Shown: positions 5,365 through 30,323 of the stretch, in pieces
Numbering within the stretch: position 1 is the first letter of the stretch
Layout of the letters: each line of letters begins with the position of its first letter
Origin: Shigella phage JK55
Sequence record: MK962758
Length of the DNA stretch: 64,000 nucleotides
Direction: 5' to 3' (one strand)
Translations under genes and position numbers: made by a program
The notes under the pieces: generated by a model
What the model saw: the letters and a program-made list of their open reading frames with translations, nothing else
Told to the model about the DNA's origin: nothing
Databases searched by the model: none

Positions 5365-5386
5365 GGCTCCTTCGGGAGCCTTTTTC
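5365..5386 (+). terminator. rho-independent terminator (GGCTCC-TTCG-GGAGCC + TTTTT)
   Basis: Perfect 6-bp GC stem, UUCG loop, T-run. Confidence 0.75.
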
Positions 5387-5404
5387 ATTTCAGGAGATTG
5401 TTAA

Positions 5405-5752
5405 ATGACATTTAAAGAGTTCTGTCAAGCTACTTTCATAATTGTTTTCTTAGTTGGGGCAGGTGTCTGGGGAGGATACTCTTACAGAGACTATCAAGTT
5501 GCTGAAGCTGAGCTAAATAATGAGAAACTAATAAGTGTTGCCAAAGATGCTTATCAGGAAGGTTTAGCCACACTGAGCACCAATTACAAAAATGATTTGA
5601 AAGATGTGCTTGCTAAGAATAAGCACACAAAAGAGGTACTAACATATGAAAAAACTAAGCCAGAGTTTTATAATGTTTGTGTTACTGATAATTATGTCAG
5701 GGTGTTCAACGAACAAAGTGAACAGTACATTCAAAAACTCCCAAGTAAGTGA
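5405..5752 (+). CDS. i-spanin candidate (Rz-like, N-terminal TM anchor)
   Basis: Single N-terminal TM helix (FIIVFLVGAGVWGG) then charged helical periplasmic domain; 3' end overlaps a lipoprotein ORF in another frame (classic Rz/Rz1 overlap). Confidence 0.45.
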   Translation: MTFKEFCQATFIIVFLVGAGVWGGYSYRDYQVAEAELNNEKLISVAKDAYQEGLATLSTNYKNDLKDVLAKNKHTKEVLTYEKTKPEFYNVCVTDNYVRVFNEQSEQYIQKLPSK

Positions 5753-10702: not shown

Positions 10703-11107
10703 ATGGCTATTAATAACCGTGAATTATCAATTTTAAAAGCACGTTTGACCGTTAACCGGATTAATGTCATCACGTCATCAGCACCAGATGAAACACTGCA
10801 AAACATTATTGGGAAGATTCAAAGTGTTATCTTAGACGTTGAAAGCGTAAAAAATTCATTGGCTGACGTTGCAGCAGGTATCACACTAGACGGTGCGCAA
10901 TATGAAATGTCCGACATGTTAGGCAAATCTAAGGTAATGAATAAAGAGTTAGATTTGAAAATGTTCCGATTTGCTGTTAAAGTGTGGCTATCTGTCGAGT
11001 ATGATGCTAACTTTGCAATCGCTGACTTTTTCGCCACTTGGTTGCAGCGTAATTTGACTAATCATGACTTCCGCGATATCTGTGATGCAATTTATGCAGA
11101 ACTCTAA
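10703..11107 (+). CDS. hypothetical early protein
   Basis: Start chosen at ATG 10703 (conserved GGAGAACTTAAAAATG context) rather than the track ATG at 10688, which lies within the RBS region. Confidence 0.5.
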   Translation: MAINNRELSILKARLTVNRINVITSSAPDETLQNIIGKIQSVILDVESVKNSLADVAAGITLDGAQYEMSDMLGKSKVMNKELDLKMFRFAVKVWLSVEYDANFAIADFFATWLQRNLTNHDFRDICDAIYAEL

Positions 11108-23455: not shown

Positions 23456-23827
23456 ATGAAAAACAGAACAAACAAAGGCCAGTTTAAAAAAGGCCAGTCT
23501 GGAAACCCATCTGGAAGACCGAAAGGCTCACGTAACAAAAGCTCTCTCGTAAAAGCTCAACTGACCATTGATAATTCTGCTGAGTTTGCTGCAAAGTTGT
23601 TTGAGGCGATTGTTACAAGGGATGCTGCTAAGCTTGCAGAGTTCGGTTTGACGACTGACGATGTAAACCTGAAGTCGATGATGGAAGCTGGTAAAACTAT
23701 CATGACCCACTCAGCAGGTGAGATGAAAGCGATTGCAGCAGACACTAAGAAAACCCCTGATAATGGTGGTCAAACCCAGACAGATAACAAACCAACGTTT
23801 TCTGCTGTAGCGACTCTCAAAAAATAA
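23456..23827 (+). CDS. hypothetical protein with N-terminal basic GNPSGRPKGSRN motif (DNA/RNA-binding-like)
   Basis: Motif KGQSGNPSGRPKGSRNK near N-terminus; TTGACA boxes upstream at 23305-23322. Confidence 0.45.
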   Translation: MKNRTNKGQFKKGQSGNPSGRPKGSRNKSSLVKAQLTIDNSAEFAAKLFEAIVTRDAAKLAEFGLTTDDVNLKSMMEAGKTIMTHSAGEMKAIAADTKKTPDNGGQTQTDNKPTFSAVATLKK

Positions 23828-23839
23828 TTTTAAAAGGTG

Positions 23840-23875
23840 TTGACAGACTCTATAAAGTTGCTCTAAAGTCTGTCA
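23840..23875 (+). promoter_or_regulatory. promoter-like TTGACA overlapping 9-bp inverted repeat TGACAGACT-N17-AGTCTGTCA (operator-like)
   Basis: Perfect inverted repeat 23841-23849 / 23867-23875 upstream of the vWA gene. Confidence 0.4.
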
Positions 23876-23908: not shown

Positions 23909-25324
23909 ATGAGCGAATTATTTAAACATGCGCACCTTCATGCAGGTCGAACTGAAAATGGTGCTGTAAACCATACTTCATCAATGTCTGCTCTAGTAAA
24001 CTTTTACAAAGCTGCTGGTTCAAGCCGTAGCAATGTAGAAATCTTACCAGACCTGTTCTACAAAGCTTTGCGTGAGGATGTTGATGTTGCAGTTCGTATT
24101 TTACTGCATATGCGAGATGTACGAGAAGGTATGGGTGAGCGTAAAGCCTTCAGAACTGTTTTGCTTCAAGCAATTGAAGACAAAGTTTTAGAGCCTACAC
24201 AGGTTCTTCGCATTATGGATAAGGTTGCAGAACTTGGTCGTTTTGATGACTTCAAAATCTTCGTAGGTACTCGTTTCGAGACGGATGCCTTCAAACATTT
24301 AGAGGCAGCATTACTAGACCCTGCAACAGCAGGTTTGGCAGCTAAGTGGTTACCACGAGTCAAACCACGTCATAAGCAGTTTGTAAAACGTTTCTGCAAG
24401 TTTGCCAACTTGAGTGAGAAAGAGTACCGCACACTGTTATCTGCACTGTCTGATACGGTTGAGCAAAAAATCTCTGCTAATGAGTTTGGTAAGATTGACT
24501 ACAGCAAGATTCCTTCACTCGCTGCTGCACGTTACCAAAAGCTCTTTAACCGTAAAGATGGAGAACGTTACAAAGCTTACATCGAATCACTCTCAAAGGG
24601 TGAGGCTAAGATTAACGCTGGTGCTGTTTATCCATACGATGTGATTAAGTCTATCAAGCATGGTAATGCAGATGTTGCCAATGAGCAGTGGAAAGCACTA
24701 CCAAACTGGATGGCAGAAGGTGAGAACATCTTGTGTATGACTGATGTTTCAAGCTCAATGTCTTGGGTGAATCTTGGTTCAATCACTGCTCTGGATATTG
24801 GTGTATCACTTGCCTTGTATGTAGCAGAACGCAATACAGGTTGCTTTAAGAATGAGTTAATGGTTTATTCAACAAACCCTCACTTCATCGAACTGAGTGG
24901 TGATTTACGAAACCGTCATCGTCAGGTGATGCGACACGTTGAATATGGCTCAACTAACTTACAAGCAGCTTTTGACCGCATTCTTGAAACAGGTAAAAGA
25001 AACAACTTGACTCAGAAAGATATGCCAAGTAAGCTTATCATCTTCTCCGATATGGAGTTCAATCAGGTTGATGGAGCTAACGGTCGTACAAACTTTGAAG
25101 CAATTCAGAGTAAGTACAAAAAAGCTGGATATGAGATGCCACAACTGGTATTCTGGTACTTAGCAAACCGTAATGGTACTTGCGAAGTGTCTGTTAAGGA
25201 TAACGGTGTAGCAATGGTATCTGGTTTCTCTCCAGCCACTTTAAAAGCTTTGCTTGGTGGTGAGAAGTTTGACCCAATCAGTGTAATGCTCAAAGCAGTA
25301 ATGATTGACCGTTACATCTGGTAA
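23909..25324 (+). CDS. vWA-domain protein with MIDAS motif (DUF2828-like or Ro60/TROVE-like; unresolved)
   Basis: MIDAS-type DxSxS motif (CMTDVSSSMS) at about residue 280; N-terminal TENGA motif; lies directly upstream of the tRNA array. Confidence 0.5.
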   Translation: MSELFKHAHLHAGRTENGAVNHTSSMSALVNFYKAAGSSRSNVEILPDLFYKALREDVDVAVRILLHMRDVREGMGERKAFRTVLLQAIEDKVLEPTQVLRIMDKVAELGRFDDFKIFVGTRFETDAFKHLEAALLDPATAGLAAKWLPRVKPRHKQFVKRFCKFANLSEKEYRTLLSALSDTVEQKISANEFGKIDYSKIPSLAAARYQKLFNRKDGERYKAYIESLSKGEAKINAGAVYPYDVIKSIKHGNADVANEQWKALPNWMAEGENILCMTDVSSSMSWVNLGSITALDIGVSLALYVAERNTGCFKNELMVYSTNPHFIELSGDLRNRHRQVMRHVEYGSTNLQAAFDRILETGKRNNLTQKDMPSKLIIFSDMEFNQVDGANGRTNFEAIQSKYKKAGYEMPQLVFWYLANRNGTCEVSVKDNGVAMVSGFSPATLKALLGGEKFDPISVMLKAVMIDRYIW

Positions 25325-25342: not shown

Positions 25343-25371
25343 TTGACAATGTGTTTGATACCCTTTAATAT
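25343..25371 (+). promoter_or_regulatory. sigma70-like promoter ahead of tRNA cluster (TTGACA-17-TAATAT)
   Basis: -35 25343-25348, -10 25366-25371. Confidence 0.55.
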
Positions 25372-25489
25372 GTTCTACATAGAAACGAAACGAGAGCTTT
25401 TCTAAGATACTGAAAAATATTTTAAAAAAGTTCTTGACAATCACTAAAAAATAATGTTAAAGTGGTTACATAGAGTTTGAAAAGTTTAT

Positions 25490-25566
25490 CTCTGTTTAGC
25501 TCAGCTTGGTAGAGCGTTCCGTTTGGGGCGGTAAGGCCGGAGGTTCAAGTCCTCCAACAGAGACCA
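25490..25566 (+). tRNA. tRNA-Pro (anticodon TGG)
   Basis: Hand-folded cloverleaf: 7-bp acceptor CTCTGTT/AACAGAG, D-arm GCTC..GAGC, anticodon loop TTTGGGG, T-arm GGAGGTTCAAGTCCTCC, CCA encoded. Confidence 0.7.
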
Positions 25567-25573
25567 AATTAAT

Positions 25574-25651
25574 GTTCCAGTAGACAAAATGGTATAGTCA
25601 CCACTCTTTCAAAGTGGATATCTGAGGGTTCAAATCCCTTCTGGAACGCCA
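25574..25651 (+). tRNA. tRNA-Glu (anticodon TTC)
   Basis: Acceptor GTTCCAG/CTGGAAC, anticodon stem CCACT/AGTGG with loop CTTTCAA, T-arm GAGGGTTCAAATCCCTT, CCA encoded. Confidence 0.6.
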
Positions 25652-25738
25652 GTTTTGACAGAAGACCAATTACAGCAAACTGAATCTACTCATCTGACAC
25701 GAAATCGGACAAAGAAGATATTTGGTCTGGTCATTAAG
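25652..25738 (+). ncRNA. repeated structured element, copy a (ACAGAAGACCAATTACAGCAA ... TTGGTCTGG)
   Basis: Shares 5' motif and covarying closing stem with copies b, c, d. Confidence 0.4.
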
Positions 25739-25741
25739 AAT

Positions 25742-25818
25742 TGCGGGTATAGAGAAAGGGCGTCTCACATGTCTCATTAGCATGGTATCGGCAGGTTCGA
25801 CTCCTGCACCCGCCTCCA
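25742..25818 (+). tRNA. tRNA-Met or Ile2 (anticodon CAT)
   Basis: Anticodon loop CTCATTA, T-arm GCAGGTTCGACTCCTGC, acceptor about 6/7 bp, CCA encoded. Confidence 0.55.
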
Positions 25819-25819
25819 A

Positions 25820-25892
25820 ATTTACAGAAGACCGTTTACAGCAATACTTATTAAATTTTTAGCGGAAAAATTGAAAGATGCGGTCTGGTAAT
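25820..25892 (+). ncRNA. repeated structured element, copy b (ACAGAAGACCGTTTACAGCAA ... CGGTCTGG)
   Basis: As above; closing stem AGACCG/CGGTCT. Confidence 0.4.
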
Positions 25893-25901
25893 ACTAAACA
25901 T

Positions 25902-25975
25902 GGTTAGGAAGCACATAAGGTATGTGCGGTCGCCTGTTAAGCGAATGGCACAGGGTTCGAATCCCTGACTAACCG
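25902..25975 (+). tRNA. tRNA-Asn (anticodon GTT)
   Basis: D-arm GCAC..GTGC, anticodon loop CTGTTAA, T-arm CAGGGTTCGAATCCCTG; no CCA encoded. Confidence 0.55.
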
Positions 25976-25986
25976 CAAAATTTAAA

Positions 25987-26075
25987 TGTGTCGTTATCCC
26001 GTAGATGGTAGCGGTGGGGACTGTAAATCCCTTGTCATTGAGACTCGGTAGGTTCGACTCCTACACGGCACACCA
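25987..26075 (+). tRNA. tRNA-Tyr (anticodon GTA), long variable arm
   Basis: Anticodon loop CTGTAAA, about 15-nt variable arm, T-arm GTAGGTTCGACTCCTAC, CCA encoded. Confidence 0.6.
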
Positions 26076-26080
26076 ATAAA

Positions 26081-26158
26081 GGTTATGTAGTTTAATTTGG
26101 TTAAAATACTCCCCTGTCACGGGAGATGATGAGGGTTCAAATCCCTTCGTAACCGCCA
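26081..26158 (+). tRNA. tRNA-Asp (anticodon GTC)
   Basis: Anticodon stem CTCCC/GGGAG with loop CTGTCAC, T-arm GAGGGTTCAAATCCCTT, CCA encoded. Confidence 0.6.
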
Positions 26159-26216
26159 ATTTTGAGAGGGCTATTTAGCCCCTCCCTTAAAGAGTTCTTA
26201 CGAGTATTCTTTAAAG

Positions 26217-26296
26217 GAGTAGAAGACCAAATACAGCAAGAATGTATGATATTTTCAAGCCAATTCAATTTTGAAAAAATTTAAAACTTGGTCTGG
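26217..26296 (+). ncRNA. repeated structured element, copy c (AGAAGACCAAATACAGCAA ... TTGGTCTGG)
   Basis: As above; closing stem AGACCAA/TTGGTCT. Confidence 0.4.
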
Positions 26297-26306
26297 CTCA
26301 ACAAAT

Positions 26307-26450
26307 TTACAGAAGACCGTTTACAGCAAAACTTAAACAATCTATTTCTCGGTAAAGAAAAGGCGAAGGTTCGATTCCTTCACTCGGCAGAGGTCGAGTT
26401 GGTGTAATGGTAGCACTTAAGATGATAAACAACGGTCTGGTAATTATCTT
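26307..26450 (+). ncRNA. repeated structured element, copy d, expanded; contains tRNA-like T-arm (GAAGGTTCGATTCCTTC) and D-arm-like segment
   Basis: Closing stem AGACCGTT/AACGGTCT; internal T-loop motif and TGGTGTAATGGTAGCAC D-arm-like segment, but no complete cloverleaf found. Confidence 0.35.
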
Positions 26451-26585
26451 TGTAGATAAGTTATTAAGCTTACCTGTGAGTATGCGACCACAAAGGGTGA
26501 AAGGGTAAATTCTAGATTTAAACCCAAAAAGTCACATCGCTACAGACCTTAAGCAAGTCTGGGTAGCTTATCTACAAAGATAATT
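26441..26585 (+). repeat. 19-bp perfect inverted repeat (TAATTATCTTTGTAGATAAG / CTTATCTACAAAGATAATT) enclosing 105 bp
   Basis: Arms at 26441-26460 and 26566-26584; candidate RNase III-type processing stem or miniature inverted-repeat element. Confidence 0.6.
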
Positions 26586-26589
26586 TAAT

Positions 26590-26665
26590 GGAAGTGTAGC
26601 AGAATGGTGATGCGGCAGACTTTTAATCTGACAGGCGATGGGTTCGAATCCCTCCACTTCTACCA
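26590..26665 (+). tRNA. tRNA-Lys (anticodon TTT)
   Basis: Acceptor GGAAGTG/CACTTCT, anticodon loop CTTTTAA, T-loop TTCGAAT with weak T-stem, CCA encoded. Confidence 0.5.
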
Positions 26666-26669
26666 AAAT

Positions 26670-26746
26670 GGTTCAGTCGCAGATAAGGTAATGCAAGGGT
26701 CTCATAAGCCCTATGAATGTGGGTTCGAATCCCATCTGAACCTCCA
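26670..26746 (+). tRNA. tRNA-Met or Ile2 (anticodon CAT), second copy
   Basis: Acceptor GGTTCAG/CTGAACC, anticodon stem AGGGT/GCCCT loop CTCATAA, T-arm GTGGGTTCGAATCCCAT, CCA encoded. Confidence 0.6.
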
Positions 26747-26748
26747 AT

Positions 26749-26823
26749 TGTGGGTTAGCATAAATGGTAATGCAAACGGCTGATAACCGTTAGAAGAGGG
26801 TTCGATACCCTCACCTACAACCA
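26749..26823 (+). tRNA. tRNA-Ile (anticodon GAT)
   Basis: Anticodon stem AACGG/CCGTT loop CTGATAA, T-arm GAGGGTTCGATACCCTC, CCA encoded. Confidence 0.6.
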
Positions 26824-26838
26824 AATTCAATAAAGTTG

Positions 26839-26867
26839 TTGACATTGAGATGTGACTACTTTATAGT
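26839..26867 (+). promoter_or_regulatory. sigma70-like promoter inside tRNA cluster (TTGACA-17-TATAGT)
   Basis: -35 26839-26844, -10 26862-26867; about 200 nt of non-tRNA sequence follows before the next tRNA. Confidence 0.55.
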
Positions 26868-27070
26868 ACCCTTAGTTTTCGTTGCGTAGCGTCTATTTTG
26901 CAAATTTAAAATAAATGCAAACGACAATGTTTTTCTGGCAGTAGCTTGATAGGCTAAACACCAGTGAGGTCTTCCAATCCCTCATCAAAGAATTTGGCGT
27001 ACTCGCCCACGGTATGATTAATAAGGTGGGCATCTTTAAGGGCTTTCTAAGAGAGTCTTTAAAGATTAAT

Positions 27071-27147
27071 GCACCCTTAGTTCAACTGGACAGAGCAAAT
27101 GACTTCTAATCATTGAGTTACAGGTTCGAATCCTGTAGGGTGCGCCA
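27071..27147 (+). tRNA. tRNA-Arg (anticodon TCT)
   Basis: Acceptor GCACCCT/AGGGTGC, anticodon stem AATGA/TCATT loop CTTCTAA, T-arm ACAGGTTCGAATCCTGT, CCA encoded. Confidence 0.65.
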
Positions 27148-27289
27148 ATTAGTTAGCAGATTACTTAGACGACCTAAGCGGGTCTTCCTGTAGGGAGGTG
27201 GTCTGTATCTCATGTTTTCCAGAACATGTAAATAATCTGAGAAGGGGCTTTACAGTGTTGAGATAATACGGTAAGTTTCGAATTATAGT

Positions 27290-27372
27290 ATGGGACGATG
27301 TTAAGACTCTAAGGCATGAGCAACGGCCTCCAAAACCGTTTCAAAGGGGTTCAACTCCTCCGTCCCATGCCA
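27290..27372 (+). tRNA. atypical tRNA-like gene (possible anticodon CCA in an enlarged 9-nt loop; isotype unresolved)
   Basis: Perfect acceptor ATGGGAC/GTCCCAT, T-arm AGGGGTTCAACTCCTCC, CCA encoded, but 83 nt long with about 7 extra nt between acceptor and anticodon arm; stem AACGG/CCGTT encloses CCTCCAAAA. Confidence 0.35.
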
Positions 27373-27385
27373 AAGTCTTATTAGT

Positions 27386-27473
27386 GGTAGGTAGCGGCTA
27401 ATGGTAGCCAAACTGTCTTGAAAACAGTTGCCACTGTAGAGATACGGTGAGGGTTCGACTCCTTTACTTACCG
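27386..27473 (+). tRNA. tRNA-Ser (anticodon TGA), long variable arm
   Basis: Anticodon stem ACTGT/ACAGT loop CTTGAAA, long variable arm, T-arm GAGGGTTCGACTCCTTT; no CCA encoded. Confidence 0.55.
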
Positions 27474-27730
27474 CCTAATAAGATTTAAAGCCAAGCTTCA
27501 TTCGGATGTTGCTTTGGTATCCCTCGTGTATTGTCGTACACACTAATAAAGCACCTAGTAGGTGTCACGGAGAAGAGATAATATCAAGCTCTCCAAAGGT
27601 TCTAGTCACCGGATTAAACAAGACTATGCAAAGACCTTTTTAGGTCTTTTTAGAGGGCTTCTAAGGTTATTACAGCTTGTTGTGGAACCTTGTTGCTTAG
27701 GTTCTTAGAAGTTCTCTAAAAAGGTTTAAT

Positions 27731-27808
27731 GGGAGATTGACGGTAATTGGTAAACCTATCTCGCTTAGAACGAGATGTTTGAGGGTTCGAATCCCTTGTC
27801 TCCTACCA
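27731..27808 (+). tRNA. tRNA with anticodon TAG (Leu by code) but short variable arm
   Basis: Anticodon stem TCTCG/CGAGA loop CTTAGAA, T-arm GAGGGTTCGAATCCCTT, CCA encoded; class-I length. Confidence 0.45.
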
Positions 27809-27815
27809 AATTAAT

Positions 27816-27891
27816 GCAGGTGTAGCAAAATGGTTATGCGGCTGACTCTTAATCAGTAAGACGATGGGTTCAATTCCCTCCACCTGTACCA
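27816..27891 (+). tRNA. tRNA-Lys (anticodon CTT)
   Basis: Acceptor GCAGGTG/CACCTGT, anticodon stem GCTGA/TCAGT loop CTCTTAA, T-loop TTCAATT, CCA encoded; paralog of tRNA-Lys(TTT). Confidence 0.5.
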
Positions 27892-27897
27892 AACAAT

Positions 27898-27973
27898 GGG
27901 GTCATAGTTTATATGGTTAAAATTCGAGTTTTGCAAACTTGGGAACTGAGTTCAATTCTCAGTGACTCCACCA
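27898..27973 (+). tRNA. tRNA-Ala (anticodon TGC)
   Basis: Anticodon stem CGAGT/ACTTG loop TTTGCAA, T-arm CTGAGTTCAATTCTCAG, CCA encoded. Confidence 0.5.
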
Positions 27974-27979
27974 ATTAGT

Positions 27980-28054
27980 GCATCCATAGTTTAAACGGGA
28001 AAATTACAGTCTTCCAAACTGAGGTTGAGGGTTCGATTCCCTCTGGATGCTCCA
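27980..28054 (+). tRNA. tRNA-Gly (anticodon TCC)
   Basis: Perfect acceptor GCATCCA/TGGATGC, anticodon loop CTTCCAA, T-arm GAGGGTTCGATTCCCTC, CCA encoded. Confidence 0.6.
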
Positions 28055-28060
28055 AACAAT

Positions 28061-28137
28061 GCTGCTTTCGTATAATTGGCTATTACACATCCCTTGTAAG
28101 GATGGAAATGCAGGTTCGAGTCCTGTGAGCAGCACCA
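28061..28137 (+). tRNA. tRNA-Thr (anticodon TGT)
   Basis: Anticodon stem CATCC/GGATG loop CTTGTAA, T-arm GCAGGTTCGAGTCCTGT, CCA encoded. Confidence 0.65.
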
Positions 28138-28140
28138 ATT

Positions 28141-28232
28141 CAGAGGTCAAGTGAAAGACCGCTGGTGTCAACTGAAGACCGTAACAAATTCCACGGAGTT
28201 GAGTTAGCGGCACAACTTCAGACCTCTTTCAC
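28141..28232 (+). ncRNA. structured non-tRNA element between tRNA-Thr and tRNA-Val (nested inverted repeats)
   Basis: AGAGGTC...GACCTCT outer inverted repeat, CTGAAG...CTTCAG inner repeat, contains the GAAGACCGT motif shared with copies a-d; no T-loop motif. Confidence 0.35.
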
Positions 28233-28307
28233 ACTCGCTTAGTTTATATGGTAAAACATCACCCTTACAAGATGAAGAAAAAGGTTCAAGTCCTTTAGTG
28301 AGTACCA
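28233..28307 (+). tRNA. tRNA-Val (anticodon TAC)
   Basis: Acceptor ACTCGCT/AGTGAGT, anticodon loop CTTACAA, T-arm AAGGTTCAAGTCCTT, CCA encoded. Confidence 0.5.
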
Positions 28308-28308
28308 T

Positions 28309-28386
28309 GTTCCAGTATCCCAATTGGCAGAGGATGCAAGCTCAAACCTTGTATTAGTGACGGTTCGAATCCGTCTTGGAACACCA
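28309..28386 (+). tRNA. tRNA with anticodon CAA (Leu by code) but short variable arm
   Basis: Acceptor GTTCCAG/TTGGAAC, anticodon stem GCAAG/CTTGT loop CTCAAAC, T-arm GACGGTTCGAATCCGTC, CCA encoded. Confidence 0.45.
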
Positions 28387-28405
28387 ATTTTAAGAGGCTA
28401 TTTAG

Positions 28406-28963
28406 ATGAGATATTTGAAGTATGCTTCATGGATTTTCTTAGCTTTACTAGAACCATTTGCAGCAACCCTAGCAGTCATCTTAGCACCTTTCGTAGTTCC
28501 ATTCTACAGTGAGAAGAAAGGGCATCTACCTTTTGGATTCAGATGGATGGAGACCTATGACAACCCGATTGATGGTGATAAAGGCCACGTTGAGAGATGG
28601 GCTAAGATTAGAAAGATTGGCAAGCTCGGTGTTTATATGCAGAGAGTTGGATGGCTCTGGAGAAACAAAGCTTATAACTTCTCTTACCATGTATTAGGAA
28701 GAGATGTAAAAGATGTTACTAAGTGGAAAGGTAATATCAACGTAAGTTCTGACCCTGAAGATAATCAGACAGGTTATCTCCTAATGTGGAACAACAATGC
28801 TTGGGGATTATTCGCTTTTATTCCGTCAATTAAAATCTTTGGTAAACAGTTTTACTGGAGAATTTATGTTGGATGGAAACTAAAAAGTGTTGTCCCAGAA
28901 GAAAGAGCATTCTCAAGGGAAAGAGTTATGTTGGCATTCTTTATTCATCCACTGAGAAAGTAA
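28406..28963 (+). CDS. hypothetical membrane protein embedded in tRNA cluster
   Basis: N-terminal hydrophobic segments (IFLALLEPFAATLAVILAPFVVPF); AAGAGG RBS 9 nt upstream. Confidence 0.55.
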   Translation: MRYLKYASWIFLALLEPFAATLAVILAPFVVPFYSEKKGHLPFGFRWMETYDNPIDGDKGHVERWAKIRKIGKLGVYMQRVGWLWRNKAYNFSYHVLGRDVKDVTKWKGNINVSSDPEDNQTGYLLMWNNNAWGLFAFIPSIKIFGKQFYWRIYVGWKLKSVVPEERAFSRERVMLAFFIHPLRK

Positions 28964-28971
28964 AGATTTAA

Positions 28972-29047
28972 AGGGGATTAGTTTACAAGGTTAAAACCTC
29001 GGTCTTTGAAATCGAAGAAGTTGGTTCAATTCCAACATCCCCCGCCA
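28972..29047 (+). tRNA. tRNA-Gln (anticodon TTG)
   Basis: Anticodon stem TCGGT/ATCGA loop CTTTGAA, T-arm GTTGGTTCAATTCCAAC, CCA encoded. Confidence 0.55.
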
Positions 29048-29049
29048 AT

Positions 29050-29128
29050 GCTCCATTACTCCAATTGGCAGAGAGGCCAGACTTAAAATCTGTGTTATGT
29101 ATCGGTTCGAATCCGATATGGAGTACCA
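29050..29128 (+). tRNA. tRNA with anticodon TAA (Leu by code) but short variable arm
   Basis: Acceptor GCTCCAT/ATGGAGT, anticodon loop CTTAAAA, T-arm ATCGGTTCGAATCCGAT, CCA encoded; D-arm paralogous to the CAA tRNA. Confidence 0.45.
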
Positions 29129-29133
29129 AATTT

Positions 29134-29209
29134 AGCGGTATAGCATAACTGGCAATGCAGCAGTCTCTGAAGCTGTCTTATTAAGGTTCAAATCCTTATG
29201 CCGCTGCCA
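29134..29209 (+). tRNA. tRNA-Gln (anticodon CTG)
   Basis: Acceptor AGCGGTA/TGCCGCT, anticodon loop CTCTGAA, T-arm TAAGGTTCAAATCCTTA, CCA encoded. Confidence 0.5.
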
Positions 29210-29240
29210 CTTCTAAGGGTTCTTACGAGAGTCCTTAAAT

Positions 29241-29316
29241 GTGGCCTTATCATAAATGGTAATGACCCATGCTGTGAACATGGTCTATACGGGTTCAAAT
29301 CCCGTAGGTCACCCCA
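29241..29316 (+). tRNA. tRNA-His (anticodon GTG)
   Basis: Anticodon stem CCATG/CATGG loop CTGTGAA, T-arm ACGGGTTCAAATCCCGT, CCA encoded. Confidence 0.65.
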
Positions 29317-29322
29317 ATTTAT

Positions 29323-29398
29323 AGTCCAAGTAGCTTATATGGTTAAAGCGCGTGTCTGAAAAACATGAGAAGAGGGTTCGAATCCCACTGGACTACCA
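29323..29398 (+). tRNA. tRNA-Phe (anticodon GAA)
   Basis: Anticodon stem CGTGT/ACATG loop CTGAAAA, T-loop TTCGAAT, CCA encoded. Confidence 0.55.
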
Positions 29399-29416
29399 AT
29401 TTCAAAGGTGCTTAAT

Positions 29417-30149
29417 GAAAGAGATGACAGAACAAGGTAAGGAGATTTTTAATCTCTTAAAAACCGGTAAAGGGTTTTCTAACCCACTTATTACTGGTGC
29501 AGCAGTTCTCGGTGGAACCGTAGCTGCTTCTACATCACTTGTAAGCTCTATTAGTTCTGTAACAGACCCTACAATGCAGGAGAAACTTGTTGCTGCTGGA
29601 CTTACAACAGTCCTTCTAAACAGCTTTACAACAAGCCTTACAAGCACTACAGCAACTACTAAAACTCTGACAGACTACGGTCAAAAGTCTATTGATGAGT
29701 TTTCATCACGTATGCAGGTAGCAAAGGGGTATTCCAATGTTATGGGTGCAGCAGGAGAGCAAGTTGGTTGTACACCATTCAGTGGTATCATGGGTGTTGC
29801 TACAGAGTATGGTCAAAAAGCTATTAACATGATGAACAGTACACTAGATAGTGTTAATGGTGTGTTAAGTGACTTACAAGATGCTATTGATAAGGGTCTT
29901 GATACTGTTTCTGATTTAGCTAATCAGGCTGTTAGTAAGATTAATGAAGGTATTTCAAAGATTACAGCTTATGCAGATGAAGTTGTGCAGATGATTGAAG
30001 AAGAAGCTTCCCTTATTGCAGAGTACCTTAAAACGAATATCAATGGGTTCTTAGCAGGTATCTTACCAGACTGGTTTGATGATGCCTGTAAAACTGGTGT
30101 GATTGACACTATTGCAACACCAGAAATGAAGAGCGCATTACAGAAATAA
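29417..30149 (+). CDS. hypothetical protein (Ser/Thr/Ala-rich N-terminal region) embedded in tRNA cluster
   Basis: Start moved to ATG 29417 (AAAGGTG upstream) because the track start 29352 lies inside tRNA-Phe. Confidence 0.5.
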
Positions 30150-30150
30150 T

Positions 30151-30243
30151 GGAAGATTAACCCTAAAAGGTAAGGGAGCAGTTTGCTAAACTGCCAGTAG
30201 CTGAGAAATCGGTGTACCAGTTCAAGTCTGGTATCTTCCTCCA
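30151..30243 (+). tRNA. tRNA-Ser (anticodon GCT), long variable arm
   Basis: Perfect acceptor GGAAGAT/ATCTTCC, anticodon stem GCAGT/ACTGC loop TTGCTAA, about 20-nt variable arm, T-arm ACCAGTTCAAGTCTGGT, CCA encoded. Confidence 0.7.
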
Positions 30244-30247
30244 ATTT

Positions 30248-30323
30248 GAATCCGTGACAGAAATGGATATGTGCCTGTCTGCAAAACAGGTTTATAAGGG
30301 TTCGAGTCCCTTCGGATTCTCCA
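30248..30323 (+). tRNA. tRNA-Cys (anticodon GCA)
   Basis: Perfect acceptor GAATCCG/CGGATTC, anticodon stem CCTGT/ACAGG loop CTGCAAA, T-arm AAGGGTTCGAGTCCCTT, CCA encoded. Confidence 0.7.

What the first reader, a model, noticed from the sequence alone, without database searches (positions are those of the whole stretch)
23909..25324. vWA/MIDAS protein directly upstream of the tRNA and tRNA-like RNA array
The 471-aa protein has a MIDAS-type DxSxS motif (TDVSSSMS) in its C-terminal half and an N-terminal TENGA motif that I associate with phage vWA proteins of unknown function (DUF2828-like). The architecture (N-terminal helical domain plus C-terminal vWA) is also that of Ro60/Rsr, which binds tRNA-like Y RNAs encoded next to it. 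Placement immediately upstream of an array containing tRNA-like elements makes a Ro60/Y-RNA-like ribonucleoprotein a testable hypothesis; the sequence evidence for the TROVE part is weak.
Basis: inference. Interest (0 to 1): 0.55.

Follow-up and report, generated by a model that had tools for sequence, protein, structure and literature searches.

The report
Phage Ro60-like protein with Y-like RNAs
This phage gene encodes a ring-shaped RNA-binding protein of the Ro60 type, and the small repeated elements among the neighbouring tRNA genes look like its partner RNAs (one is a tRNA mimic); the Ro60 likeness was already suspected, but these RNAs, which sit next to this gene in very diverse phages, appear to be undescribed.

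Summary

It is 98% identical to Bas63 gp130. A 2024 preprint already called gp130 Ro60-like and an inhibitor of the Ppl defence, and guessed that Y RNAs hide among the tRNAs.

What I add are the candidate RNAs. Four elements lie between the tRNAs: E1 25656-25733, E2 25823-25890, E3 26218-26298 and E4 26309-26443. All share a terminal stem followed by UACAGCAA. E4 encloses a permuted tRNA-like domain (T-arm, closed acceptor, D-arm), as in bacterial YrlA.

The same module, with different but complementary stems, flanks DUF2828 genes on the same strand in phages of Proteobacteria, Campylobacter, Firmicutes and Actinobacteria. Covariation is strong (92% of cells paired against 57% in shuffles). 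The canonical Ro-binding motif is absent and Rfam's YrlA threshold is not met.

Protein-RNA binding is inferred, not shown. I rate it a new variant of a known kind.

The parts
23840..23869 (+). sigma-70-like promoter (TTGACA-18-TAAAGT) in front of the Ro-like gene
   Evidence: a consensus match only
23909..25324 (+). 471-aa Ro60-fold protein (DUF2828 + DUF7788): N-terminal helical-repeat ring and C-terminal vWA domain; 98% identical to Bas63 gp130
23951..23965 (+). TENGA motif (T15, N17 and G18 invariant in the family)
24743..24757 (+). MIDAS DxSxS (D279, S281, S283); the site is completed by T349 (24953-24955) and D381 (25049-25051)
   Evidence: invariant columns; sequence
25343..25463 (+). 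two promoter-like sites (25343-25371, 25434-25463) in front of the tRNA and Y-like RNA array
   Evidence: a consensus match only
25656..25733 (+). E1, short Y-like RNA between tRNA-Glu and tRNA-Met: outer stem UGAC/GUCA, inner stem AGACCAA/UUGGUCU, then UUACAGCAA
   Evidence: (R1 26.4 bits)
25823..25890 (+). E2, short Y-like RNA between tRNA-Met and tRNA-Asn: UAC/GUA, AGACCGU/GCGGUCU, UUACAGCAA
   Evidence: (R1 32.7 bits)
26218..26298 (+). E3, short Y-like RNA after tRNA-Asp: AGU/GCU, AGACCAA/UUGGUCU, AUACAGCAA
   Evidence: its homolog in L086 is hit by R2
26309..26443 (+). E4, tRNA-like Y-like RNA: basal stem AGACCGUU/AACGGUCU, UACAGCAA, AC-like stem, variable-arm hairpin, T-arm (GAAGG UUCGAUU CCUUC), closed 7-bp acceptor hairpin, U8-like position, and D-arm with GG

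Best explanation
The gene encodes a Ro60-type toroidal RNA-binding protein: a helical-repeat ring closed by a vWA domain with a MIDAS site. It belongs to the large, mostly phage-borne DUF2828 family. The four elements E1-E4 between the first tRNAs are its cognate Y-like RNAs. They are transcribed with the tRNA array from the promoters at about 25343 and 25434 and cut out by the tRNA-processing enzymes that trim the flanking tRNAs. Each RNA carries a common handle: a terminal stem (AGR-NNNN / NNNN-YCU-G) followed by single-stranded UACAGCAA. This is most likely the protein-binding site and sits where the Ro-binding motif sits in canonical Y RNAs. The apical parts differ. In E4 the apical part is a permuted tRNA mimic whose acceptor stem is closed by a loop, as in bacterial YrlA. 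By analogy with Rsr-YrlA-PNPase and the Thermus phage Ro60-Yrl-PNPase complex, the RNAs would tether the ring to, or gate its access to, host RNA-handling enzymes or tRNA-recognising factors during infection. What is shown: the fold, the MIDAS site, the existence, conservation and covariation of the RNA modules, and their linkage to the gene. What is shown by others for the 98%-identical gp130: it counters the Ppl defence. What is inferred: transcription and processing, protein-RNA binding, and the downstream effector.
Against: There are no binding or expression data. The TROVE sequence signature is absent, as is the canonical Ro-binding motif GNCGAAN0-1G / GGUCCGA. Rfam shows no Y_RNA or YrlA hit in the window even at E<=10. 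gp130 alone, expressed from a plasmid or inserted into T7 without these RNAs, restores plaquing on Ppl hosts, so at least that phenotype does not need the phage RNAs. Single-sequence folding z-scores are modest (-0.9 to -2.3). The alignments used for pair counts were fitted to the model. The descriptor search selects for paired stems. Twenty of 85 loci showed no module within 1.2 kb under the strict descriptor.
Confidence: 0.72

Rival explanations
1. The protein works alone as a protein-level inhibitor of a host defence such as Ppl, using its vWA/MIDAS face or ring to bind a host protein. The neighbouring RNA elements are then functionally unrelated to it.
For: gp130 alone rescues T7 on a Ppl host and even improves plaquing beyond the no-defence control. 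MIDAS sites are classic protein-ligand sites, and the MIDAS residues are invariant here.
Against: This does not explain why a covarying RNA module with one conserved motif is linked to the gene, on the same strand, across phages of four bacterial phyla. It also does not explain why that motif sits on the gene's own ribosome-binding region in some lineages. An RNA-independent anti-Ppl effect and an RNP function are not mutually exclusive, and the protein could bind host RNAs in the T7 experiment.
Confidence: 0.13
2. The modules are cis-acting signals rather than stable trans-acting Y-like RNAs. They would be autoregulatory operators and/or processing or stability determinants of the gene's mRNA and of the tRNA precursor, bound by the protein or by host RNases.
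For: Minimal hairpins end 2-6 nt before the Shine-Dalgarno sequence of the DUF2828 gene in L006, L010, L016, L028, L031, L013, L064 and L067. Many modules lie in the gene's 5' or 3' untranslated region and are followed by a terminator.
Against: In the window and in Bacillus phage vB_BcoS-136 the modules are separated from the gene by tRNAs and have their own promoters. The elaborate, covarying tRNA-like domain is unnecessary for a simple operator. Canonical Y RNAs are likewise co-transcribed with rsr (PMC4201824). Both roles may coexist.
Confidence: 0.12
3. The elements are decayed tRNA genes or spacer repeats of the tRNA array with no function of their own, and their nearness to the vWA gene is incidental.
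For: E4 contains tRNA-like arms. tRNA arrays in phages do carry pseudo-tRNAs, for example the tRNA-like stretch at 27292-27366.
Against: The modules occur next to DUF2828 genes in loci with no tRNAs at all: 43 of 80 viral loci have none within 6 kb, e.g. L008, L012, L021-L023 and L025. Compensatory changes maintain every helix. The permuted order with a closed acceptor is conserved, which decay would not produce.
Confidence: 0.03

Closest known systems
Bas63 (Escherichia phage JohannRWettstein) gp130, PhageMaP preprint PMC11482910
   Same: It is the same protein (462/471 identical) in the same position directly upstream of the tRNA block. The preprint reports it as structurally similar to Ro60, as a counter of the Ppl defence, and as transferable to T7. 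The authors guessed that some annotated tRNAs might be Y RNAs.
   Different: The preprint does not identify any RNA. The candidates found here are not among the annotated tRNAs. They lie between them, and in Bas63 partly under two tiny minus-strand 'hypothetical protein' CDS (bas63_0137 and bas63_0138).
Bacterial Rsr (Ro60) with YrlA/YrlB or Yrn1/Yrn2 Y RNAs (Salmonella, M. smegmatis, D. radiodurans; PMC4201824)
   Same: Both have a ring plus vWA fold. Both have several small RNAs encoded within a few kb on the same strand, each with a terminal stem carrying a conserved motif at the stem/loop junction. In both, one RNA has a tRNA-like domain in the order AC-stem, T-arm, closed acceptor, D-arm, alongside shorter hairpin-type RNAs.
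   Different: There is no TROVE Pfam match. The motif is UACAGCAA instead of GNCGAAN0-1G. The Rfam YrlA score is 39.6 bits or less against a gathering score of 69, and there is no hit for the window's E4. No rtcBA neighbours are present here; RtcB lies nearby only in Listeria phage List-36.
Thermus phage phiLo Ro60 with Yrl1/Yrl2 (PMC12135203; PDB 9KOP, 9L5Y)
   Different: phiLo Ro60 is a TROVE-domain protein and its Yrl RNAs carry the CGAA motif. The present family is DUF2828 with a different motif, and nothing has been tested biochemically.
Mycobacteriophage 'Ro-like RNA binding protein' (cluster L, e.g. Krypton555 gp56)
   Same: It is a full-length homolog (about 34% identity). Its downstream gap holds the same trio of short, tRNA-like and short modules with ACAGCAA, followed by a terminator (R1 37.4 bits, R2 86 bits).
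   Different: Only the protein name exists in the annotation. I found no paper describing RNAs for this type. The stems begin UGGAC rather than AGR.

Membership tests
Ro60/Rsr (TROVE-domain) proteins | TROVE domain detectable by sequence (Pfam PF05731) | tested here: not met
   There is no TROVE hit for the query or for any of 40 homologs at E<=10. Single-sequence and profile HMMER searches against PDB sequences find no Ro60.
Ro60/Rsr (TROVE-domain) proteins | Helical-repeat ring closed by a C-terminal vWA domain | tested here: met
Ro60/Rsr (TROVE-domain) proteins | MIDAS motif DxSxS...T...D in the vWA domain | tested here: met
   D279, S281, S283, T349 and D381 are invariant in 40 homologs.
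Ro60/Rsr (TROVE-domain) proteins | Ro60-type vWA by sequence (Pfam vWA_Ro60, PF25045) | tested here: inconclusive
   Weak hits appear in 6 of 40 homologs (best E 9e-4) and none for the window protein.
Ro60/Rsr (TROVE-domain) proteins | Physical association with Y RNAs | not testable with these tools
   The only evidence is genomic linkage and a shared motif.
Y RNA / YrlA (Rfam RF00019, RF02553) | Score at or above the Rfam gathering threshold | tested here: not met
   The window has no hit at E<=10. Relatives score L088 39.6, L089 38.3 and L077 26.7 bits against a gathering score of 69.
Y RNA / YrlA (Rfam RF00019, RF02553) | Conserved Ro-binding motif (GGUCCGA in animals; GNCGAAN0-1G in bacteria) near the 5' end | tested here: not met
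   UACAGCAA (variants UUCAGCA, UACCGCAA) takes its place at the same topological position.
Y RNA / YrlA (Rfam RF00019, RF02553) | Terminal stem formed by the 5' and 3' ends; 60-140 nt; encoded within a few kb of the Ro gene on the same strand | tested here: met
   All 73 R2 hits are on the gene strand.
Y RNA / YrlA (Rfam RF00019, RF02553) | At least one RNA per genome with a tRNA-like domain (T-arm, D-arm, closed acceptor-like stem) | tested here: met
   E4 meets this. The class has 22 members in which 30 of 32 pairs covary.
Pfam DUF2828 / DUF7788 | Scores above the gathering thresholds for both domains | tested here: met
   DUF2828 scores 101.2 bits (cut-off 29) and DUF7788 148.5 bits (cut-off 27.1). 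All 40 homologs match both.
tRNA (for E4) | Canonical cloverleaf with free 5' and 3' acceptor ends and an anticodon loop | tested here: not met
   ARAGORN does not call it. Rfam tRNA matches only the T-arm and acceptor 3' strand (model positions 9-71, cut at the 5' end), at 15 bits. The acceptor stem is closed by a loop, and the anticodon stem opens into the basal stem.

The most novel reading that the evidence does not exclude
DUF2828 proteins and the UACAGCAA-stem RNAs form a previously unrecognised, phage-wide second lineage of Ro/Y ribonucleoproteins with its own RNA recognition code. The family has about 5,800 protein clusters at 50% identity and occurs in 709 of 50,697 phage records. The RNAs come in at least three classes: short hairpins, permuted tRNA mimics, and forms of about 250 nt. 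The protein would also autoregulate through a minimal operator on its own ribosome-binding site. The tRNA mimic sometimes has NCCA encoded right after the acceptor 3' strand, so it could be split by RNase P into a two-piece tRNA-like RNA. It would serve as a decoy for, or an adaptor to, tRNA-directed host enzymes or defence nucleases, linking phage tRNA arrays to counter-defence.
Probability: 0.35. Interest if true: 0.8.

Novelty: new variant of a known kind. Interest (0 to 1): 0.66.

Why it matters
Ro60/Y RNA particles are conserved from bacteria to humans, and their mechanism is still debated. A large, phage-borne sister family with a different and very simple RNA handle (a 7-8-bp stem plus UACAGCAA) would give a tractable system for asking how Y RNAs recruit and gate the ring. 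The family already has a genetic phenotype: the 98%-identical gp130 counters the Ppl defence and boosts T7.

The finding also makes the PhageMaP authors' guess directly testable, because it names the RNAs and the nucleotides to mutate. It suggests a function for conserved "spacers" in phage tRNA arrays. It also flags systematic mis-annotation, since tiny hypothetical CDS are called over these RNAs in GenBank records.

Tried and rejected
- Sequence-only detection of Ro60 failed. phmmer and profile hmmsearch against PDB sequences gave only noise, and Pfam TROVE never hit.
- Rfam on the window gave no Y_RNA or YrlA hit even at E<=10.
- MAFFT could not align the tRNA-like RNAs of distant phages (L077 was misaligned), so I switched to covariance models.
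- Single-sequence folding was weakly informative (z -0.9 to -2.3).
- I looked for an Rtc-type RNA-repair neighbourhood. RtcB lies 1.3 kb downstream of the gene only in Listeria phage List-36. tblastn with that RtcB found nothing in the window or in the other loci, so the link is not general.
- KVP40 showed no convincing module adjacent to its gene.
- The supplementary tables of Chen et al. 2014 (the list of 22 phages with YrlA) and the 2020 Annual Review are not held. I therefore could not check directly whether any DUF2828-type phage was included in that survey.
- Other stem+ACAGCA matches in the window (e.g. 33821, 39829, 43683) are background: their number is similar on both strands and none has the AGR/YCU ends.

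Full report
**1. The observation**

The ORF at 23909-25324 (+) exists as described: ATG start, 471 aa. The N-terminal TENGA (residues 15-19) and the C-terminal-half TDVSSSMS (278-285) are both present. In an alignment of 40 homologs with 42-88% identity, T15, N17 and G18 are invariant. So are D279, S281, S283, T349 and D381, which together make a complete MIDAS site. Pfam assigns DUF2828 and DUF7788. PHROGs assigns phrog_850, "RNA-binding protein".

ARAGORN finds 25 same-strand tRNAs from 25490 to 30323, so the gene ends 165 nt before the first one. The window is a Felixounavirus, about 98% identical to Escherichia phages pinkbiff and Alf5.

**2. The protein has the Ro60 fold but not the TROVE sequence signature**

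Sequence methods do not connect it to Ro60. phmmer and a 40-sequence profile against all PDB sequences return only noise. Pfam TROVE is not hit by any of the 40 homologs even at E<=10, and vWA_Ro60 is hit weakly by 6 of them.

Structure does connect it. The AlphaFold2 model is confident (mean pLDDT 87.5, pTM 0.88).
- Foldseek against the PDB puts seven Ro60 structures on top, aligned over the full length: Xenopus and human Ro60, D. radiodurans Rsr and Thermus phage phiLo Ro60 (E 3e-8 to 1e-6, TM up to 0.67). After them come only vWA domains.

The N-terminal ring is therefore Ro60-like, not just the vWA domain.

**3. Prior art**

Bas63 (MZ501086) gene bas63_0130 occupies the same position and is 462/471 identical. 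The PhageMaP preprint (PMC11482910) makes these statements about gp130:
[quoted passage not shown] - Deleting it cripples Bas63 on a host carrying the Ppl defence.
- gp130 alone, from a plasmid or inserted into T7, rescues T7 on that host.

Full-length homologs (about 34% identity) in cluster-L mycobacteriophages are annotated "Ro-like RNA binding protein", and RefSeq calls the family "RNA-binding protein". Phage Ro60/Y-RNA particles of the TROVE type are known from mycobacteriophages and others (PMC4201824) and from Thermus phage phiLo, where binding to Yrl RNAs and PNPase was shown (PMC12135203). I found no paper that identifies RNAs for the DUF2828 type.

**4. The RNAs in the window**

Four elements lie between the first tRNAs. 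They share a 5' arm, CAGAAGACC(R)NUUACAGCAA, and a 3' arm, (N)YGGUCUGG (repeat finder families D6 and D11; sequence).

Each folds so that its ends pair. There is an outer 3-4-bp stem (UGAC/GUCA, UAC/GUA, AGU/GCU), a small internal loop, and a 7-8-bp stem AGACCRN/NYGGUCU. Single-stranded (U)UACAGCAA follows immediately.

| Element | Coordinates | Position |
|---|---|---|
| E1 | 25656-25733 | between tRNA-Glu and tRNA-Met |
| E2 | 25823-25890 | between tRNA-Met and tRNA-Asn |
| E3 | 26218-26298 | after tRNA-Asp |
| E4 | 26309-26443 | before tRNA-Lys |

E1-E3 are short. E4 encloses, in this order: an anticodon-stem-like helix, a variable-arm hairpin, a T-arm (GAAGG-UUCGAUU-CCUUC), a 7-bp acceptor stem closed by a tetraloop, a U8-like position, and a D-arm with the GG dinucleotide. 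This is the permuted tRNA-like layout of bacterial YrlA (PMC4201824).

No other such unit exists in the 64-kb window. Promoter-like sites precede the gene (23840) and the array (25343, 25434). Because the flanking tRNAs border each element, the tRNA-processing enzymes would release them; this step is inferred.

**5. The same module accompanies the gene across phage diversity**

I fetched 80 viral-metagenome loci encoding homologs, most at about 40% identity, plus annotated phages.

*Motif and module counts*
- The 8-mer TACAGCAA occurs 119 times on the gene strand and 17 times on the other strand in 0.99 Mb; chance would give about 15.
- Of the 180 gene-strand occurrences of the 7-mer ACAGCAA, 98 lie within 1 kb of the gene.
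- A descriptor (stem of at least 7 bp, 1-3 nt, NCAGCA/ACNGCAA) within 1.2 kb of the gene finds 149 modules on the gene strand in 65 of 85 loci. The other strand has 37, and dinucleotide shuffles average 30.8 with a maximum of 41.
- A catalogue of 97 non-redundant modules gives the consensus a|AGR-NNNN(N)|(n)U|ACAGCAA ... (N)NNNN-YCU|g. It contains more than 30 different, always complementary, stem sequences. Features not imposed by the search are also conserved: U before ACAGCAA in 78/97 and G after the stem in 64/97.

*Examples*
- Klebsiella phage FBKp34 (52% protein identity, a different subfamily) has AGAAGAA/UUCUUCU and AGAAGCU/AGCUUCU units, the latter tRNA-like, in the gap between its gene and its tRNA array.
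- Metagenomic locus L077 has a 241-nt unit, a 117-nt tRNA-like unit and a 92-nt unit just upstream of the gene.
- L008-type loci have a 60-nt unit and a unit of about 250 nt just downstream, followed by a terminator.
- Mycobacteriophage Krypton555 has short, tRNA-like and short units followed by a terminator.
- Listeria, Enterococcus and Campylobacter phages have units just upstream of the gene. A Staphylococcus phage has three just downstream. Bacillus phage vB_BcoS-136 has six interspersed in its tRNA array.

The linkage is to the gene, not to tRNAs as such: 43 of the 80 viral loci have no tRNA within 6 kb.

**6. Independent tests with covariance models**

Model R1 was built only from five Felixounavirus-group E4 sequences. 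In 884 kb of non-Felixounavirus loci it found full-length matches with E down to 2e-8, and all 51 reported hits were on the gene strand.

A second model, R2, was trained on 19 of those matches. It found 73 hits at E<=0.01 in 1.0 Mb, again all on the gene strand. They included strong matches that were not in its training set, such as L077 at 66 bits, L054, L007, L016 and L030. It also scored 74 and 54 bits in the Bacillus phage. A few weak hits of about 28 bits overlap true tRNAs and are false positives.

On the 22 tRNA-like members:

| Measure | Observed | Controls |
|---|---|---|
| Cells forming standard pairs | 92.3% | 57.5% in column shuffles (0/500 reach it); 41-46% with partners slid |
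| Pairs changed on both sides | 30 of 32 | - |
| Covariation score | 0.72 | 0.18 in shuffles |

RNAalifold run on that alignment recovers the basal stem, T-arm, closed acceptor and D-arm by itself, with 21 of 23 pairs showing compensatory change. The alignment was fitted to the model, which favours the structure. The margins over both controls, the strand exclusivity and the position next to the gene do not depend on that.

Rfam's YrlA model gives sub-threshold matches to the tRNA-like cores of L088 (39.6 bits), L089 (38.3) and L077 (26.7), against a gathering score of 69. The helix order is the same, but the YrlA GNCGAA region is not matched. The window's E4 is not hit at all.

**7. How it most likely works**

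*Shown*
- A Ro60-fold protein with an intact MIDAS site.
- A family of structured RNAs genetically linked to it. They share one stem+motif handle and have diversified apical domains, one of which is a tRNA mimic.

*Shown by others*
- The near-identical gp130 counters Ppl and generally improves T7 growth.

*Inferred*
- The handle is the protein's binding site. It occupies the position of the Ro-binding motif in Y RNAs, it is the only feature common to all classes, and in at least eight lineages a minimal 32-41-nt hairpin with ACAGCAA in its loop ends 2-6 nt before the gene's own Shine-Dalgarno sequence. That is the geometry of a translational operator.
- The RNAs are released from the tRNA precursor by tRNA-processing enzymes.
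- As in Rsr-YrlA-PNPase and phiLo Ro60-Yrl-PNPase, the apical domains recruit or gate host RNA-handling factors. The tRNA mimic addresses enzymes that recognise the tRNA elbow.

The T7 experiment shows that the anti-Ppl effect does not need the phage RNAs. Either the RNP has a further role, or the protein can use host RNAs, or the two activities are separate.

**8. Classification**

This works like a Ro60/Y RNA particle, but it is not a member of the TROVE protein family by sequence, nor of the Rfam Y_RNA or YrlA families by score or motif. It is a member of Pfam DUF2828/DUF7788. That family is large: 5,782 clusters at 50% identity have E<=1e-3 and 2,254 have E<=1e-30, and 709 of 50,697 phage records carry it.

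I rate it a new variant of a known kind. The protein-level resemblance is already published. As far as I could search, the cognate RNA family, its recognition motif, its breadth and the putative operator are new.

**9. Limits**

- No expression or binding data exist.
- The descriptor search selects for paired stems.
- E-values from the shortened calibration are rough.
- I could not read the 2014 supplementary list of phage YrlA loci.
- Some loci (20 of 85) lack a detectable module under the strict descriptor, partly because contigs are truncated.

Noticed in passing
window 26441-26588 (+): A 148-nt element between E4 and tRNA-Lys folds with a 24-bp terminal stem (MFE -46.3 kcal/mol, z -6.65, 0/200 shuffles as good). 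Inside it is a mini-hairpin, CAGAC-CUUAAGCAA-GUCUGG, that resembles the E-module (AGAC stem, UAAGCAA loop). It may be a fifth, divergent partner RNA.
   Followed up: partly
L006 5954-5986; L010 1764-1795; L016 2859-2890; L028 5950-5985; L031 5903-5937; L013 5946-5986; L064 5906-5944; L067 5909-5944: Minimal 32-41-nt hairpins with ACAGCAA in the loop end 2-6 nt before the Shine-Dalgarno sequence of the DUF2828 gene itself. They are candidate translational autoregulatory operators and the smallest version of the binding site. The window has no such hairpin.
   Followed up: partly
L088 (Klebsiella phage FBKp34) 6003-6116: An annotated 114-nt 'tRNA-Asp' is an otherwise normal tRNA with an inserted hairpin AACUUCU/AGAAGUU followed by UUACAGCA, placed between the D-arm and the anticodon arm. 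The module appears to be embedded in a non-permuted tRNA.
   Followed up: partly
L008 7471-7720, L009 7471-7721, L011 7473-7729, L015 2145-2379, L019 7284-7539, L027 7459-7685, L066 6080-6320: A long (about 227-257 nt) class of the module lies directly downstream of the gene. It has conserved blocks (UACAGCAAAAAGUA, UAGUAGAC, AGCCGAAGAC, CUGCCGA, ACGAAC) and a covarying basal stem, and in L008 it ends at an intrinsic terminator. Its internal structure is unresolved.
   Followed up: partly
L091 (Listeria phage List-36) 4575-6455: An RtcB tRNA-splicing ligase (Pfam E 1e-57) and a gene annotated as a metal-dependent phosphohydrolase (no Pfam match here) lie 0.6-1.3 kb downstream of the DUF2828 gene on the same strand. 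This recalls the bacterial rsr-yrlBA-rtcBA operon. tblastn found no RtcB in the other loci held.
   Followed up: yes
L084 (Bas63) 10749-11023; L085 (SUSP2) 5368-5538; L092 2323-2439; L095 3971-4060 and 4190-4318: Public records annotate tiny 'hypothetical protein' CDS, some on the opposite strand, over the Y-like RNA elements. These are probably mis-annotations.
   Followed up: no
L030 7942-8070 and 8149-8293; L054 7523-7640; L089 4518-4655: In some tRNA-like members the loop that closes the acceptor stem begins with (N)CCA right after the acceptor 3' strand: ACCA, ACCA, GCCA and CCA (alignment). RNase P cleavage could then leave a tRNA-like 3' CCA end, as reported for M. smegmatis YrlA. The window's E4 has AGAG instead.
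   Followed up: no
window 27292-27366 (+): A tRNA-like stretch not called by ARAGORN has a 10-bp acceptor-like stem, a T-arm-like hairpin and a 3' GCCA (Rfam tRNA-Sec 23 bits, E 0.6; fold z -3.0). It is probably a pseudo-tRNA or an aberrant tRNA.
   Followed up: partly
window 26766-27070 (+): Weak tmRNA-like Rfam matches (tmRNA_permuted 30.8 bits, tmRNA 15.9 bits, both below threshold) lie in the 250-nt gap after tRNA-Ile, which also holds the best promoter-like site of the region (26839, 11/12 match). ARAGORN called tmRNAs near the DUF2828 gene in six metagenomic loci.
   Followed up: no
window 23456-23827 (+): A 123-aa DUF5681 protein (Pfam E 7e-14) lies immediately upstream on the same strand. 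It is conserved in that position in Bas63, SUSP2, pEC-M719-6WT.1 and SFPB. Its function is unknown, and it may be co-expressed with the Ro-like gene.
   Followed up: partly
window 28406-28963 and 29352-30149 (+): Two protein-coding ORFs (185 and 265 aa) are embedded in the tRNA array on the same strand. The equivalents in Bas63 are bas63_0153 and bas63_0159, both annotated as hypothetical.
   Followed up: no
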